Virus record (IMG/VR): IMGVR_UViG_3300044797_000318
Span: 74,672 to 138,671 of that record
DNA from: a virus
Length of the DNA: 64,000 bases
Strand: one strand, 5' to 3'
The notes below the pieces were generated by a model. That model made no database searches. It was not told the DNA's origin and saw nothing but the letters and a program-made list of their open reading frames with translations. The translations under genes were made by a program, and so were the position numbers. Of this stretch, positions 2,900-35,372 are shown piece by piece; positions within the stretch are counted from its first letter, which is position 1, and every line of letters starts with the position of its first letter.

Positions 2900-3730
2900 A
2901 TGAGAATTTATAAAGCAAATATTGCACAAGGGATTGGAGATAACATTATGGCAAAATGTTATGCCGATCAAGTCAAAGACCAGTATGATCAAATCTACTT
3001 CACTCATCACGCGCCCATCGTTCAGAGAGAAAAAAATAATTCACCACAATACTGGAATTTTTTACATGAAGTAGGGCAGTTATTTTTCACTGAACCTCCT
3101 TATGTATACAATCAGGGTGAACACCCGTTTCGTGATGCAGAGGGATTAATATCAGATTTTAATATCGTTCCACAAAAACCTCAGGTATCACAATACAAAC
3201 ATTTACTATGCAAGGGGACATCTCTAAATTTACCAGAAGAGTATATAGTATTAACTACTAAAATTAGATATGTTGAAAGATCATTTTTCAATCAAATAGA
3301 ACCTCAACTATGGCAAACAATTAAAGAACTTTCCAATAAATATAAAATAGTAATATTAGGCGAACGACAAGTAGAAATGTGCCAAGATTATTTATATCAT
3401 GGGATAAATCAGATATATGGTATTTATCCAGAAATAATCAAAAATGTTTCAGCCGATCGAGTGTTAGATTTAACTATACCTGCGCTTGGTATTACTAGTC
3501 CAACCTTATCTCAAATACAACAAGATTGTCTTATTATGAGTGAGGCAAAATTGGTTATTACATTGGGCCTTGGTGGTAATGTTTGTATGGCCATTGCAAC
3601 ATCTAATGTAGTTGGTTATAGAAGAGATAATATCAAATGTGCTAATGATATCTACGATCAAAAATATTCAGATGCTATGGTTAGTAAAGATTGGAACGAA
3701 TTTATTACAGCGATAAAGAGTTATCTATGA
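2900..3730 (+). CDS. Putative GT-B (GT9-like) glycosyltransferase, paralogue 2
   Basis: GIGD motif; long blocks shared with the previous ORF (EYIVLTTK, DLTIPALG, QIQQDCLIM). Confidence 0.55.
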   Translation: MRIYKANIAQGIGDNIMAKCYADQVKDQYDQIYFTHHAPIVQREKNNSPQYWNFLHEVGQLFFTEPPYVYNQGEHPFRDAEGLISDFNIVPQKPQVSQYKHLLCKGTSLNLPEEYIVLTTKIRYVERSFFNQIEPQLWQTIKELSNKYKIVILGERQVEMCQDYLYHGINQIYGIYPEIIKNVSADRVLDLTIPALGITSPTLSQIQQDCLIMSEAKLVITLGLGGNVCMAIATSNVVGYRRDNIKCANDIYDQKYSDAMVSKDWNEFITAIKSYL

Positions 3731-4947
3731 TAAAAAATCTTTTTAGTTTAGGCAGCTTATATGTATCTGATTTTGTCAGGAATGACGAGTCTCCCAGGGG
3801 AGATAAAACTGAATTAAAATTGATGATGACAAATGGCGGTAATGTTCGCCTAGAAAAAAGTGCGCCACTGGATACTATGTATGGTAAATATTGGTATCGA
3901 TCTGGCATCAATAACTCAATGAAACAGGAGTTAAAAAACATTGTTGATTCAATTTTAGCCGTCAAGCAACTCAAAGAAAATGATATTTGGCTAGACATTG
4001 CCTGTAATGATGGAACCCTCTTTACTTTTTTACCCAAAGAACTAATTAAAATAGGTATCGATCCTGTGGATGATTCTTTTAAAAAAGAATCTGAGAAACA
4101 CGCAGATATTATTGTGCAAGATTATTTCACTGCCAACGCTTTTAAATCTACTAAATTTGGACATTTGAAAGCAAAAGTGATTACTTCTATTGCTATGTTT
4201 TATGATTTGGAAGAACCAGAGCCTTTTATTAAAGATGTGTATGAGGTGTTGGACGACAATGGTTTGTGGGTTTTGCAATTAAGCTATACCCCCTTAATGT
4301 TAGAGCAACTTGCTTTTGATAATATCTGTCATGAACATATTTTTTATTATTCTCTTTTTAACTTGAAAAATCTATTGGAAATAAATGGCTTTCAAATCGT
4401 AGATTGTCAACTCAACGATACCAATGGGGGATCATTCAGAGTATATGCTATGAAAGATAGTGCTAATGTAAAAACTTTTGCCACACAACCTTATAGAGAT
4501 ATTGGGCGTTTCAGAGTTGCCTCTATTTTATCACATGAAAAAACATTACACTTATCCGATGTAGAAACCTGGCAGCACTTCTATGACAGAATTAATCGGT
4601 TAAAAGAACGAACAGTGTCATTCATTAAACAAGAAAAAGCTAACGGCAAAAAAATATGGGGTTATGGCGCTTCTACCAAAGGTAACACGCTACTACAATA
4701 TTTTGGACTTGATTATACTTTGATAGATGGAATTGCCGAAAGAAGTGTTCATAAATTTGGGCTCAAAACAGTAGGGACTAATATACCAATTTACTCGGAA
4801 GATGAAATGAGAAAAGCCAAACCAGATTATCTTTTGGTTTTGCCCTGGCATTTCATCAATGAGTTTTGCGAAAGAGAAAGAGAATTTCTTTCCAAGGGCG
4901 GAAAGTTTATTGTTCCTTGCCCCAAATTTGAAATAATAGGATTATAA
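3727..4947 (+). CDS. NDP-hexose C-methyltransferase
   Basis: YWYRSG, LDIACNDGT, FDNICHEH, GYGASTKGNTLL, LVLPWHF, GGKFIVPCP; ATG at 3727 overlaps the upstream stop. Confidence 0.9.
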   Translation: MIKNLFSLGSLYVSDFVRNDESPRGDKTELKLMMTNGGNVRLEKSAPLDTMYGKYWYRSGINNSMKQELKNIVDSILAVKQLKENDIWLDIACNDGTLFTFLPKELIKIGIDPVDDSFKKESEKHADIIVQDYFTANAFKSTKFGHLKAKVITSIAMFYDLEEPEPFIKDVYEVLDDNGLWVLQLSYTPLMLEQLAFDNICHEHIFYYSLFNLKNLLEINGFQIVDCQLNDTNGGSFRVYAMKDSANVKTFATQPYRDIGRFRVASILSHEKTLHLSDVETWQHFYDRINRLKERTVSFIKQEKANGKKIWGYGASTKGNTLLQYFGLDYTLIDGIAERSVHKFGLKTVGTNIPIYSEDEMRKAKPDYLLVLPWHFINEFCEREREFLSKGGKFIVPCPKFEIIGL

Positions 4948-32644: not shown

Positions 32645-32946
32645 TTTTGATCTTTCTCGGGCTCAAACTCTAATGTTCCGTCCACAAAGCGATCATATAT
32701 TTCTTGATGAATACTCCACGGATCTTTCCGCCCAAATGATAAAGCACCACCAGTATACATCATCCTTCCGATAAGAACTTCATCACATCGCAACTCTGTT
32801 AGCTTATCGCATAAATATTGGCCTGCATAACATACCTCTCGAATAATAGGGTTTTGCGCCAAATTGACTGGCATTTTTGGATCATTATCAATTTTTTCTG
32901 ACCAACGAAGAATATCTTCGTTCGTCACTGAATTAGGTCTTGGCAT
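32641..32946 (-). CDS. Hypothetical protein
   Basis: AAGGA SD; coupled. Confidence 0.6.
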   Translation of the reverse strand: MPRPNSVTNEDILRWSEKIDNDPKMPVNLAQNPIIREVCYAGQYLCDKLTELRCDEVLIGRMMYTGGALSFGRKDPWSIHQEIYDRFVDGTLEFEPEKDQN

Positions 32947-32956
32947 TTATTCCTTA

Positions 32957-33184
32957 TCACTTGAAAACTTGTAGTCTGGCTTTTCTCATTTCATCAGCCA
33001 TTTTATAGGCCACCATCGCTATGCGCTCTTGGCGTGCCTTGGATCTCTTTTGATAATCCTCATCCCACATTTCATTATCAATAATGTTGGAACAAGTTCC
33101 TTCTTTGGTTATCAAGGCTTGCATGGCAGCGATAGCAAATTGATCCCGCAAACGCAATTCCTTCTCATCATCTTCCACTGACAT
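32957..33184 (-). CDS. Phage protein of the RDxFAxxAMQ...AYxxADxM type
   Basis: Motif visible; ATG at 33184 after a GAGGA SD; the listed longer ORF runs through the ncRNA. Confidence 0.7.
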   Translation of the reverse strand: MSVEDDEKELRLRDQFAIAAMQALITKEGTCSNIIDNEMWDEDYQKRSKARQERIAMVAYKMADEMRKARLQVFK

Positions 33185-33200
33185 TTTATTCCTCATCAAT

Positions 33201-33433
33201 TTTGGGTAATGCCGGCTTTCTCCCCGGCTTTGGTACACTTTTCCACAGGTGCAAAAGGGTTCTTGCGAACCGTCTGGGGCTGGGCGTGAGGAGTTCCTAC
33301 GGAACCGCTCTGGTGTCAATTCACCTCGTCAAAGGAGGTATTCTTCCTCCTACCACAGCTCTACTAACGAATCGGCTAGCTCACTTTTAGATTATTGCTA
33401 ACCTCAGCTAAATTAGTAGAGGGATTACCCAAA
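33201..33433 (-). ncRNA. Unidentified ~233-nt highly structured RNA
   Basis: 10-bp terminal helix (UUUGGGUAAU/AUUACCCAAA), 9-bp CUCUACUAA/UUAGUAGAG, two GCAA tetraloop hairpins, several more hairpins; G-U pairs favour the minus strand. Confidence 0.7.
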
Positions 33434-33579
33434 TCTTATTCTTCATTTGCTATAAAAACAAAAATAGCTTCTTATCAAAATAAGAAGCGTGCGATGGTGA
33501 TACATCCAACAATAATGGTGTCTAACCAAATAACAAGGCCTAAGGCGGCAAGAAAGTCTTTCATCTTTATCTTCCTGTA

Positions 33580-33654
33580 TGGTATCCCCAACTGGAATCG
33601 AACCAGTACTGTTTGTTTCGAAGACAAACGTGATATCCGTTTCACTATGGAGAC
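33580..33654 (-). tRNA. tRNA-Arg(UCG)
   Basis: Cloverleaf GTCTCCA/TGGGGAT, anticodon loop CTTCGAA, TTCGATT, encoded CCA. Confidence 0.93.
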
Positions 33655-33665
33655 ATATACTTACT

Positions 33666-33750
33666 TGGTGCGCCTGGTAGGAGTCGAACCTACTATGGGT
33701 TTCCCCGCTTGTTTCGTAGACAAGGGCCTTATCCGTTAGACTACAGGCGC
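33666..33750 (-). tRNA. tRNA-Arg(ACG) with long variable arm
   Basis: GCGCCTG/CAGGCGC, loop CTACGAA, variable arm GGG-GAAA-CCC, CCA. Confidence 0.9.
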
Positions 33751-33761
33751 ATTTTCTTACT

Positions 33762-33840
33762 TGGTATTCCCGGTCCGATTCGAACGGACATCGATCCAAT
33801 TACGGTGCTCAGAGGTAGAAGCTCTGTCCGATACGGGAAC
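33762..33840 (-). tRNA. Atypical tRNA-Arg(UCU) lacking a canonical D-arm
   Basis: GTTCCCG/CGGGAAT acceptor, CAGAG-CTTCTAC-CTCTG, perfect T-arm, CCA; only 7 nt at the D-arm position. Confidence 0.8.
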
Positions 33841-33849
33841 ATACTTACT

Positions 33850-33924
33850 TGGTGATCCTAATGAGGGTCGAACTCATTCCTGAACCTTGAGAGGGTTCCG
33901 ACCTAGCCGGTAGTCGATAGGACC
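33850..33924 (-). tRNA. tRNA-Glu(CUC)
   Basis: GGTCCTA/TAGGATC, loop CTCTCAA, CCA. Confidence 0.93.
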
Positions 33925-34452: not shown

Positions 34453-34526
34453 GATCTTACCTTATAAAAAAGAAAATTATTGAACCCAGTTCAGCGTGTG
34501 TTATATTGCACAGCAGAGGTTCAATT

Positions 34527-35213
34527 ATGAAAAACATAGAACAGTGTAAAGCCAAAGAATTACGAAGTCAAGGAATGTCCATCAAGACAATTGCCAAAGA
34601 ATTAGGTGTGTCAGCCGGCTCGGTTAGCGTATGGGTGAGAGATATCGAATTATCGCCGGAACAAATTGAAACCCTCAAATCACAGAACGCCATTTACGAT
34701 AATCAACATAAAGGAGCCAAGGCTCGTCAATTACAAGCTAGACAACAAAGATTACGATATCAGGAAGAGGGCAGAATAAAAGCGAGAGAAAAAGATCCGC
34801 TACATATGGCAGGATGTATGTTGTATTAGGCAGAAGGGTCCAAGAAAAGAGTAAGTTGTGAATTTTCTAATTCAGAACCGCATATGCTAAAAATGTTTTT
34901 ACAATTTCTATATCAGTGTTATGGTATAACCAAAGAACAAATAAAAATACATATAAATTGCTATACAACCAACGGTATTAGTGTAGAGGAGATAGAAAAA
35001 TATTGGGCAGACAATCTAGATATTCCTAAAAGTTGTTTTGGCAAAACCACTACCGATAACCTATCAAAATATTCTTTACAAAAGAAAGCTAAAAACAAAC
35101 TTCTATATGGAACTGTAAAAATCAAAGTTTTCAAAAGTGTATGGCTCGTCCAAAATATATTTGGAGCTATTCAAGAATATGCTAATTTCAATTCAGAATA
35201 TTGTGTTGATTGA
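34527..35213 (+). pseudogene. HTH + LAGLIDADG-like protein (LYWxEGxK type) interrupted by an in-frame TAG at 34827-34829
   Basis: Two listed ORFs are in one frame: ...GCMLY*AEGSKKR..FSNSEP..MLKMFL; TAG sits at the expected Trp (TGG) position. Confidence 0.75.
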
Positions 35214-35217
35214 TATT

Positions 35218-35291
35218 TGGTGACCCGTAACGGTTACGATCCGATGTTCAAGAGTTGAAAACACTTTGTCCTACCATTAGACGAACGGGCC
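35218..35291 (-). tRNA. tRNA-Glu(UUC), atypical T-loop
   Basis: GGCCCGT/ACGGGTC, loop TTTTCAA, T-loop ATCGTAA, CCA. Confidence 0.85.
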
Positions 35292-35295
35292 ATTA

Positions 35296-35372
35296 TGGGG
35301 TGTCGTACGAGTTTTGATCTCGTCAAAGAATGAGTCACAGTCATCCGGGTTCGCCAGCTCCCTCACGACACC
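35296..35372 (-). tRNA. tRNA-His(GUG) with encoded G-1, atypical T-loop
   Basis: G-GTGTCGT/ACGACAC-C-CCA, loop CTGTGAC, T-loop ATCAAAA. Confidence 0.88.

What the first reader, a model, noticed from the sequence alone, without database searches (positions are those of the whole stretch)
33201..33433. Unidentified ~233-nt multi-helix RNA at the 3' end of the tRNA array
Seen on the minus strand: a closing helix UUUGGGUAAU/AUUACCCAAA; a long arm CUCUACUAA...UUAGUAGAG enclosing UAGCU/AGCUA and AGGUUA-GCAA-UAAUCU; then hairpins GGAGG/CCUCC, GGUG/CACC, GGUUCC-GUA-GGAACU, GGUUC-GCAA-GAACC, UGCAC/GUGUA and GCCGG/CCGGC. It is GC-richer than its flanks, with GNRA loops and G-U pairs on one strand. GGAGGAAG and AGAAAGCCGGCAUUA faintly echo RNase P CR-I and CR-V, but I could not build P4. 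It has no tmRNA, SRP or group I hallmarks. Inference: a possibly new phage ncRNA or ribozyme co-transcribed with tRNAs.
Basis: partly seen in the sequence, partly recalled or inferred. Interest (0 to 1): 0.8.

Follow-up and report, generated by a model that had tools for sequence, protein, structure and literature searches.

The report
Undescribed structured RNA in jumbo phages
A real, roughly 233-base folded RNA that matches no known RNA family sits as a self-contained cassette among the tRNA and tRNA-synthetase genes of a few soil and peat giant phages, and what it does is still unknown.

Summary
Window 33433..33201 (minus strand) encodes a 233-nt RNA with seven helices closed by a 10-bp terminal helix. 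I found five sequences in four lineages, all from one clade of soil/peat jumbo phages. Across them 95.5% of pair cells stay paired, against 33-47% when partners are slid. 21 of 71 pairs show compensatory changes. No Rfam family matches, even at E<=10, in any of four homologues. The RNase P echo fails: both look-alike strings lie in local, covarying hairpins.

The context is new. In three of four lineages the RNA lies directly or almost directly upstream of a phage tyrosyl-tRNA synthetase gene. An ORF starts 14-17 nt after its 3' end in all four. However, RNA and synthetase occur without each other within the clade. The RNA is a clean presence/absence cassette, and I found no T-box features or expression platform.

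My best reading (0.45) is an autonomous, single-copy RNA module embedded in a polycistronic message. The main rival (0.3) is a cis-acting leader of the ORF75/tyrS operon. There is no expression evidence and no ribozyme evidence. The same stretch had been flagged once before from another window of this genome (e1-6152150); the scan found no look-alike on other DNA.

The parts
33201..33433 (-). Whole structured RNA, 233 nt (235 nt in relatives)
   Evidence: CM R1 scores 241 bits here and 235-269 bits in the 4 other sequences
33424..33433 (-). P1 5' strand (UUUGGGUAAU); pairs with 33201-33210
   Evidence: helix 1: 10 pairs, 98% of cells paired, one pair G-C to A-U in 2 of 5 sequences
33201..33210 (-). 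P1 3' strand (AUUACCCAAA)
33359..33421 (-). P2 long arm: outer helix, internal loop, inner helix (GGUUAGC/GCUAGCC), and a 16-17-nt apical loop with conserved ..AAUGGUGAG (AAAAGUGAG in the window)
   Evidence: (helices 2-4: 9 pairs with compensatory changes)
33327..33357 (-). P3 arm with an invariant 3x3 internal loop (GGU/UUG) and a GGAGG/CCUCC top; holds the invariant GUGGUAGG and UACC strings
   Evidence: helix 6 (98% of cells paired); for the invariant columns
33312..33325 (-). P4 hairpin GGUG-AAUUGA-CACC, invariant in all five sequences
   Evidence: helix 7 never varies
33288..33310 (-). P5 hairpin, variable in sequence and covarying
   Evidence: helix 8: 4 of 9 pairs compensatory
33243..33283 (-). 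P6 arm: three stacked helices with conserved internal loops (CCAGACG, CCUUUUGCACC) and a variable tetraloop
   Evidence: helices 9-10: 5 pairs compensatory, 100% of cells paired
33229..33242 (-). J6/7, a conserved unpaired strand (AAAAGUGUACCAAA; AAACGUGNACCAAA in two relatives, ending ..CCACU in L023)
33211..33228 (-). P7 hairpin GCCGG-GGAGMAAG-CCGGC
   Evidence: helix 11: one compensatory change (GCCGA/UCGGC in L025) and one G-U
32957..33200 (-). 16-nt spacer with GAGGA, then a 75-aa ORF (ATG at 33184). A homologous ORF follows the RNA in L023 and precedes tyrS there and in L022
   Evidence: PHROG families of unknown function
33467..33488 (-). Terminator-like hairpin plus U-run, 33 nt upstream of the RNA, at the end of a 29-aa ORF (ATG at 33564, read; one search lists the longer GTG-start frame 33475-33645)
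33580..33654 (-). tRNA-Arg(UCG), the last tRNA of the array, 146 nt upstream of the RNA

Best explanation
This is an undescribed, single-copy RNA of 233-235 nt. It has seven helices closed by a 10-bp terminal helix, and just over half of the 233 window positions are invariant across the four distinct sequences of alignment A2 (the nearly identical L072 was not in it), about half of those outside predicted helices. One clade of soil/peat jumbo phages carries it as a discrete cassette in the variable tRNA / aminoacyl-tRNA-synthetase region.

Shown:
- The fold is under selection at the RNA level on the gene strand.
- The cassette is gained or lost cleanly at the ends of P1.
- It is independent of which gene follows it.

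Inferred:
- It is transcribed inside a polycistronic message. The upstream stop codons lie 3 nt before it, or inside its first 22 nt.
- It folds on its own and acts as an autonomous RNA module. Most likely it is a stable RNA whose paired ends let it be cut out of, or insulated within, the message, as the neighbouring tRNAs are.
- It works with host or core-phage translation or tRNA machinery, not as a switch dedicated to one gene.

The partner and the chemistry are unknown.
For: Structure:
- 95.5% of 354 pair cells form standard pairs, against 33-47% when partners are slid by 1-3 columns.
- 21 of 71 pairs have changes on both sides, and 0 of 500 shuffles reach the observed values.
- 46 of 338 paired cells are G-U.
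- All six frames carry stops in each of the 5 sequences.

Autonomy within the 9-row ATPase clade (support 100/99):
- RNA and tyrS together: 3 lineages (L023/L024, L025, L028).
- tyrS without the RNA: 3 lineages (L022, L026, L037).
- RNA without tyrS: the window and L072.
- Neither at the locus: L021.
- The 75-aa ORF dissociates from the RNA in the same way.

Clean cassette:
- L025 reads TrpRS stop, 3 nt, RNA, 17 nt, TyrRS. L060 reads TrpRS stop, 20 nt, TyrRS.
- In the L028/L037 sister pair, homology stops at the first base of the RNA. A 256-aa HAD-like ORF takes the RNA's place.

No expression platform:
- The 3' spacer is an ordinary unconserved Shine-Dalgarno linker.
- No shared alternative pairing hides the SD or AUG, which are predicted mostly open in 3 of 4 sequences.
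- No terminator follows the RNA.

Other points:
- There is one copy per genome in 4 of 4 RNA-bearing records searched.
- The window-lineage variant (L072, also in runs X4 and X5) has 4 changes in 233 nt (1.7%) against 2.4-3.6% in the three adjacent ORFs. Three of the 4 changes lie in helices and keep the pair.
- The same region interleaves tRNA genes and small ORFs on one strand. RNA genes excised from mRNA-like transcripts are therefore already the local rule.
Against: - No transcript evidence. The one RNA library laid (X23) covers only 32765-32897, not the RNA.
- The RNA sits in the same syntenic slot in every lineage, so its independence from its neighbours is shown only by gene loss and gain inside that slot.
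- In 4 of 4 lineages an ORF starts 14-17 nt after P1, and in 3 of 4 tyrS is the next or next-but-one gene. That is what a leader would look like.
- The lower substitution rate in the tyrS-less lineage is not statistically meaningful (4 of 233 against 26 of 906).
- No protein co-varies with the RNA. Only 2 of 277 ORFs shared by two RNA-bearing genomes are missing from both RNA-less genomes, and neither is informative.
- The family is small (5 sequences, 4 lineages). The alignment used for pair counts was fitted to the model.
Confidence: 0.45

Rival explanations
1. The RNA is a cis-acting 5' leader or operator of the downstream operon (ORF75 - tyrS - ORF102 ...). It would stand where T-box leaders stand in bacterial tyrS genes. 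It would bind tRNA-Tyr, TyrRS or a metabolite and control ribosome entry at the start codon 14-17 nt after P1.
For: - The RNA is on the same strand as the next ORF and 14-17 nt upstream of it in 4 of 4 lineages. The SD starts 4-6 nt after P1.
- tyrS is the next gene in L025 and L028 and the next-but-one in L023.
- No terminator separates the RNA from the ORF.
- Among the 80 bacterial tyrS loci kept as best relatives of the phage TyrRS (44-49% identity, mostly Clostridia; the sample is biased by the search patterns), 6 of the 8 that I scanned carry a T-box leader of 200-260 nt ending about 65-200 nt upstream of tyrS.
- The RNA has many invariant unpaired nucleotides, as aptamers do.
Against: - RNA and tyrS occur without each other inside the clade (3 lineages with both, 3 with tyrS only, 1 with RNA only, 1 with neither).
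- The window has neither TyrRS nor TrpRS in its 64 kb, and no TyrRS in the 139 kb held, yet it keeps the RNA intact.
- No conserved alternative pairing with the SD or AUG was found.
- There is no RF00230 match at E<=10 in 4 homologues.
- No conserved Tyr codon lies in an internal loop of the long arm.
- The only invariant UAC and UGGU strings lie about 12 nt apart in one arm. That is too close to contact both the anticodon and the 3' end of one tRNA (inference from tRNA geometry).
Confidence: 0.3
2. The RNA is a ribozyme. It could be a much reduced RNase P-like tRNA-processing RNA, or a self-cleaving element that cuts the polycistronic transcript.
For: - The size, the number of helices and the density of invariant unpaired nucleotides are in the range of small ribozymes.
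- The genome is rich in tRNAs, carries a tmRNA, and by an earlier scan note not checked here (e1-6152147) RNA-repair genes.
Against: - No RNase P, group I, hammerhead, twister, HDV or other ribozyme model matches at E<=10 in 4 homologues.
- The CR-I-like and CR-V-like strings are local hairpins with compensatory changes, so P4 cannot form.
- The RNA is absent from sister phages that keep the same tRNA arrays, so it is not needed for their tRNA processing.
Confidence: 0.07
3. The RNA is a selfish or nearly neutral structured insert, such as a mobile RNA-level or DNA-level cassette with 10-bp terminal inverted repeats, that confers no function on the phage.
For: - Clean presence/absence at the P1 boundaries.
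- Patchy distribution that needs at least 3 gains or losses on the ATPase tree.
- The P1 strands form a perfect 10-bp inverted repeat.
Against: - One copy per genome, and always in the same slot.
- Strong strand-specific RNA covariation and G-U pairs.
- Just over half of the positions are invariant across the four distinct sequences at 71-79% identity. Meanwhile the adjacent 75-aa ORF keeps only about 41% amino-acid identity.
- No transposase, homing endonuclease or reverse transcriptase is consistently adjacent.
Confidence: 0.08
4. The region codes for protein, either as the antisense 51-68-aa ORF or as an N-terminal extension of the 75-aa ORF. Alternatively it acts at the DNA level.
For: - A plus-strand ORF at 33202-33390 (62 aa) has look-alikes in the relatives.
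- A TTG-started extension of the 75-aa ORF reaches 33319.
Against: - Every frame has at least one stop in every homologue.
- Single-base indels shift the antisense frame between homologues. In L025 the C-terminal half reads in another frame.
- The tblastn similarity is explained by nucleotide conservation.
- The G-U pairs would be A-C mismatches on the other strand.
Confidence: 0.02

Closest known systems
T-box leader of tyrS (Rfam RF00230; founding example Bacillus subtilis tyrS, recalled)
   Same: It is about 200-260 nt, multi-helix, on the gene strand, and lies in front of a tyrosyl-tRNA synthetase gene. Of the 8 bacterial tyrS loci I scanned, out of the 80 kept as best relatives of the phage TyrRS, 6 carry one. 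It shares two hexamers with the T-box consensus printed (UGGUGA, GUGGUA).
   Different: There is no RF00230 match at E<=10, no specifier codon, no antiterminator/terminator or SD sequestrator, and no one-sided UGGN bulge. The whole fold is closed by a terminal helix, which T-boxes lack. The RNA also occurs without tyrS, and tyrS without it.
Small stable RNAs of phage tRNA regions: T4 RNAC and RNAD (roles unknown; passage read in PMC3014915)
   Same: It is a phage-encoded, non-tRNA RNA in the tRNA gene region, on the same strand as the tRNAs, and its function is unknown.
   Different: There is no sequence similarity to any of 50,697 phage records. The T4 RNAs are smaller (recalled). A discrete transcript has not been shown here. 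In relatives the RNA is embedded among protein genes 1.2-2.3 kb from the last tRNA.
RNase P RNA, including reduced forms (Rfam bacterial A/B, archaeal and type T models)
   Same: It has a terminal helix joining the 5' and 3' ends, a multi-helix core, a tRNA-rich setting, and two short strings that resemble CR-I and CR-V.
   Different: No model matches. The two strings are in separate local hairpins supported by compensatory changes, so the defining P4 pseudoknot cannot form. Sister phages with the same tRNA arrays lack the RNA.
Large phage-borne orphan RNAs found beside tRNA genes (GOLLD, ROOL; recalled, both in Rfam)
   Same: It is a complex-folded RNA of unknown function in phage genomes near tRNA genes, with a patchy distribution.
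   Different: It is two to three times shorter and has no Rfam match. It is known so far from only 5 sequences.
Escherichia coli thrS operator (synthetase autoregulation through tRNA mimicry; recalled)
   Same: It is a structured RNA just upstream of the SD of a synthetase gene, where a bound protein could block the ribosome without any alternative RNA pairing.
   Different: No loop resembles the tRNA-Tyr anticodon loop. The 7-8-nt P3 loop ends in UA but is otherwise variable. Binding was not tested.

Membership tests
RNase P RNA | Match to an Rfam RNase P covariance model | tested here: not met
   No RNase P match at gathering score or at E<=10 in the window and 3 homologues
RNase P RNA | P4 long-range helix between CR-I and CR-V | tested here: not met
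   GGAGG pairs locally with CCUCC (A-U to G-C in 2 of 5). GCCGG pairs locally with CCGGC (GCCGA/UCGGC in L025). One search, helices 6 and 11
RNase P RNA | Cleaves pre-tRNA 5' leaders | not testable with these tools
   Needs an in vitro assay
T-box leader (RF00230) | Match to the T-box covariance model | tested here: not met
   No match at E<=10. Positive control: 6 of 8 bacterial tyrS loci match at 93-131 bits
T-box leader (RF00230) | Specifier codon (UAC/UAU for Tyr) in a conserved internal loop of Stem I | tested here: not met
   The 3' internal loop of the long arm differs in all four lineages, and only L025 has UAC there (alignment)
T-box leader (RF00230) | T-box sequence with a one-sided UGGN bulge, in an antiterminator competing with a terminator or SD sequestrator | tested here: not met
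   GUGGUA is present but lies in a symmetric 3x3 internal loop. There is no terminator after the RNA and no shared SD-sequestering helix
T-box leader (RF00230) | Located in the leader of an aminoacyl-tRNA synthetase or amino-acid gene | tested here: inconclusive
   Next to tyrS in 3 of 4 lineages, but not in the window or L072. tyrS has no RNA in L022, L026, L037 and L064
Riboswitch (generic) | Expression platform: conserved alternative pairing that hides a terminator or anti-terminator, or the SD/AUG | tested here: not met
   Folding the RNA with its flanks shows no shared alternative. The SD is mostly unpaired in 3 of 4. Thermodynamic prediction only
tmRNA | tRNA-like ends plus a tag reading frame | tested here: not met
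   ARAGORN finds no tmRNA here. It does find one elsewhere in the genome
Group I intron | Match to the Intron_gpI model; interrupts a gene; terminal G | tested here: not met
   No match at E<=10. It lies between genes, and the last base is A in all five
Y RNA / YrlA with Rsr (Ro60) | Co-occurring TROVE-domain protein and a match to the Y-RNA models | tested here: not met
   No TROVE match in the 139 kb held; controls ring in 2 of 14 genomes. No Rfam match. The genome is only 32% complete
Stable RNAs of phage tRNA clusters (T4 RNAC/RNAD type) | A discrete stable transcript processed from the tRNA-region transcript | not testable with these tools
   The only RNA library laid does not cover the RNA
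Stable RNAs of phage tRNA clusters (T4 RNAC/RNAD type) | Sequence relatedness to the T4 RNAs | tested here: not met
   No blastn match (word size 11) in 50,697 phage records

The most novel reading that the evidence does not exclude
The RNA is a new class of tRNA-binding or synthetase-binding RNA. It would have taken the place of the T-box leader in front of a phage-borne tyrS and would sense tRNA-Tyr charging or TyrRS level through an architecture unrelated to T-boxes. Equally new, it could be a compact catalytic or RNP-forming RNA that jumbo phages add to their private translation toolkit.
Probability: 0.2. Interest if true: 0.8.

Novelty: new variant of a known kind. Interest (0 to 1): 0.5.

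Why it matters
Jumbo phages carry large private sets of translation genes: tRNAs, tmRNA and synthetases (PMC7162821, passages read). Their non-tRNA RNAs, however, are almost unexplored. That paper's text contains none of the words riboswitch, RNase P or noncoding.

This RNA is well folded and highly conserved, and it matches no known family. It sits exactly where bacterial tyrS genes keep their T-box. If it is a leader, it would be a second, independent RNA solution for controlling a synthetase. If it is a free RNA, it joins the long-unexplained stable RNAs of phage tRNA regions, such as T4 RNAC and RNAD.

Its small size (235 nt) and clear helices make it tractable for probing, binding assays and structure work. 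Its weakness is the tiny family and an uncultured host.

Tried and rejected
Searches for more homologues that found none beyond the five:
- blastn and megablast against 50,697 phage records.
- Three motif scans of viral contigs. The new stretches were chance: nhmmer and R1 found nothing in them.
- One scan of metagenome contigs. It gave 2 stretches, of which one (L072) was new and nearly identical to the window.
- One motif scan of genome contigs, with 0 matches.
- R1 on 28 related loci, on 5 whole related records, on 13 TyrRS loci where only the 2 known ones hit, on 80 bacterial tyrS loci, and on 10 further ORF101 loci.

Other negative results:
- Expression: the look-up of sequencing runs listed one RNA library, with a share of 0.07. 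When laid, its single contig covers only 32765-32897, so it says nothing about the RNA. A part without cover is no evidence of absence.
- Protein partner: of 700 ORFs of at least 60 aa in G007, 277 have a tblastn hit in G006. Only 2 of those 277 lack a hit in both RNA-less genomes G002 and G010, and neither is informative. This comparison covers 2 RNA-bearing records against 2 RNA-less ones, out of the 11 records to which the searches gave a handle. Note also that G006 and G007 are only 59-62% complete.
- Pseudoknots: several invariant complementary strings exist, such as UGGU/ACCA and GUAGGAGG/CCUUUUGC. Five sequences cannot test them, so I make no claim.
- Weak Rfam matches are scattered and never recur between homologues: snoRNA and lncRNA models, purD at E 0.36, and mir-8510 at E 9.7. 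I rejected them as chance.
- The 75-aa, 101-aa and 123-aa neighbours have no Pfam family, and only PHROGs of unknown function.

- Four searches found no description of this RNA.
- PMC10690425 reports 8,495 unnamed candidate structured RNAs predicted from IMG/VR (passages read). I therefore cannot exclude that this motif is listed there without a name.
- The fifth search only located PMC7162821.

Full report
WHAT IS THERE

The window is the 3' part of a 138.7-kb IMG/VR virus record that CheckV rates as 32% complete. Its relatives are 250-480-kb jumbo phages. Runs that hold near-identical DNA are labelled peat and soil metagenomes.

Alone it folds to -82.6 kcal/mol with z = -4.66, and 0 of 200 shuffles fold as well. 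The plus strand reaches z = -2.52. GC is 0.49-0.51 inside the element and 0.37-0.42 beside it.

Rfam 15 gives only tRNAs in the window at gathering score (7 matches, none here). At E<=10 it gives nothing but scattered snoRNA and lncRNA noise. The same holds for three homologues. ARAGORN sees 9 tRNAs in the window and no tmRNA.

HOMOLOGUES AND STRUCTURE

I anchored on the MoxR-like ATPase 1 kb downstream and fetched 20 related loci. blastn and nhmmer found the RNA in 4 of the 39 loci then held (L023, L024, L025, L028), at 71-79% identity. L023 and L024 are identical in this stretch.

Motif scans, a covariance model (R1) and further anchor genes added only L072. This is a 4-kb metagenome contig 96% identical to the window over 2 kb. 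Every other search was negative. The family therefore stands at five sequences in four lineages, with one copy per genome.

On the model-guided alignment A3:
- 95.5% of 354 pair cells are standard pairs, against 33-47% with partners slid by 1-3 columns.
- 21 of 71 pairs have changes on both sides.
- 0 of 500 column shuffles reach the observed values.

Two caveats apply. There are only five related sequences, and the alignment was fitted to the model.

46 of 338 paired cells are G-U, which fixes the strand. All six frames have stops in every homologue, and single-base indels break the antisense ORF's frame.

The consensus fold is as follows (RNA positions; window coordinate = 33434 minus position):
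- P1: 1-10 with 224-233.
- P2: 13-75, a long arm with a 16-17-nt apical loop.
- P3: 77-107, with an invariant internal loop.
- P4: 109-122, an invariant hairpin.
- P5: 124-146, variable and covarying.
- P6: 151-191, three stacked helices with invariant internal loops.
- J6/7: an invariant 14-nt strand.
- P7: 206-223.

The remaining helices are supported, except the invariant GGUG/CACC, which cannot be tested. The GNRA loops are not conserved.

CONTEXT

This is the new information.

- In L028 and L025 the RNA ends 17 nt before the ATG of a 397-aa tyrosyl-tRNA synthetase (PF00579 at 1.3e-69, plus the SYY C-terminal domain).
- In L023 it is followed by a 75-aa ORF and then TyrRS.
- In the window and L072 it is followed by the homologous 75-aa ORF (spacer 16 nt) and then directly by the conserved 101-aa gene. 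No TyrRS or TrpRS lies anywhere in the 64-kb window, and no TyrRS in the 139 kb held.
- Upstream, a stop codon lies 3 nt before P1 in L025 (TrpRS) and L023. In L028 a DUF4326 gene runs 22 nt into the RNA.
- In the window a 29-aa ORF and a terminator-like hairpin precede the RNA.
- The last tRNA is 146 nt away in the window, but 1.2 kb away in L023 and 2.3 kb away in L028.

The RNA is thus an intercistronic module on the gene strand. It is not the tail of the tRNA array.

DISTRIBUTION

On an ATPase tree all RNA-bearing rows fall in one 9-row clade (support 100/99). The label needs 3 changes.

Within that clade the locus holds:
- RNA and tyrS in three lineages (L023/L024, L025, L028).
- tyrS without the RNA in three (L022, L026, L037).
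- RNA without tyrS in one (the window).
- Neither in one (L021).

L064 also has tyrS without the RNA.

The presence/absence is clean. L025 reads TrpRS, 3 nt, RNA, 17 nt, TyrRS, whereas L060 reads TrpRS, 20 nt, TyrRS. Between the sisters L028 and L037, homology ends at the first base of the RNA, and a HAD-like ORF replaces it.

Only 2 of 277 ORFs shared by two RNA-bearing genomes are missing from both RNA-less genomes. Neither suggests a partner.

WHAT IT IS NOT

RNase P: no model matches, and the CR-I-like and CR-V-like strings are local covarying hairpins.

T-box: the phage TyrRS resembles clostridial enzymes (44-49% identity, in a sample biased by the search patterns). 6 of 8 such bacterial genes carry a T-box that ends about 65-200 nt upstream of tyrS. 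The phage RNA, however, gives no T-box score. It has no conserved specifier, no one-sided UGGN bulge, and no terminator or sequestrator.

There are also no tmRNA, group I or Y-RNA features.

HOW IT MOST LIKELY WORKS

Shown: an RNA fold under selection, a clean cassette, and independence from the identity of the following gene.

Inferred: it is transcribed within the operon message, and P1 brings its ends together. It then acts as a self-contained RNA. It is either released like the neighbouring tRNAs or insulated in the message, and it works with host or core-phage components. I give this 0.45.

The main rival, at 0.3, is a leader or operator for the ORF75/tyrS operon that blocks the ribosome sterically when a ligand is bound. 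The constant 14-17-nt distance to a start codon and the tyrS neighbourhood speak for it. Three things speak against it: tyrS and the RNA occur without each other, the RNA is intact in a tyrS-less phage, and there is no expression platform.

The other readings are a ribozyme (0.07), a selfish or neutral insert (0.08), and a coding or DNA-level element (0.02). The remaining 0.08 is unassigned.

There is no expression evidence. The one RNA library laid covers only 32765-32897.

NOVELTY

I found no description in four literature searches. T4 RNAC and RNAD are the nearest precedent, and their roles are unknown (PMC3014915, passage read).

A catalogue of 8,495 unnamed IMG/VR candidates exists (PMC10690425, passages read), but its lists are in supplements I could not open.

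I rate this as a new architecture within known kinds (a phage structured RNA or a synthetase-operon leader), not as a proven new kind. My interest score is 0.5. The RNA is real, clean and tractable, but the family is tiny, the host is uncultured and the function is open.

Noticed in passing
G000:C1:61584-61658 (complement), upstream of the window: ARAGORN calls a tRNA with anticodon CUA (it labels it 'Pyl'). This would be an amber-suppressor-type tRNA and might mean that TAG is read through in part of this phage's genes.
   Followed up: no
G000:C1:65196-65545 (complement), upstream of the window: A phage-encoded tmRNA with tag peptide ANDNAAPMALAA lies next to three tRNA-Thr genes.
   Followed up: no
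window 35221-35291 (minus): Rfam scores a tRNA here at 44.9 bits, directly beside tRNA-His(GUG) at 35296-35371. ARAGORN does not call it.
   Followed up: no
window 33580-33868: The tRNA genes differ sharply between the window and its 96%-identical relatives: 14 of 75 positions in tRNA-Arg(UCG) against 1.7-3.6% in the surrounding genes. One contig replaces 33666-33849 by 388 other letters. The tRNA array is therefore a hotspot of exchange even between close strains.
   Followed up: partly
L028:1318-2292 and 3395-4588; L025; L022; L026; L037: Relatives carry adjacent TrpRS and TyrRS genes between the tRNA-Arg array and the conserved 102-aa gene. The window has lost both. It keeps about 19 nt upstream of the RNA that match the 3' end of the DUF4326 gene of L028.
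   Followed up: partly
window 34506-34829 and 34884-35213 (plus strand): Two adjacent ORFs of 107 and 109 aa lie on the opposite strand between tRNA genes. The first has a helix-turn-helix-like stretch by eye. They may be the two halves of a split homing-endonuclease-like gene.
   Followed up: no
RNA positions 78-85 with 176-183; 79-82 with 200-203 (window 33356-33349 with 33258-33251; 33355-33352 with 33234-33231): Two invariant long-range complementarities exist: GUAGGAGG with CCUUUUGC (8 pairs, which would compete with P3 and P6) and UGGU with ACCA in J6/7. They could be an alternative state or a pseudoknot, but five sequences cannot test them.
   Followed up: partly
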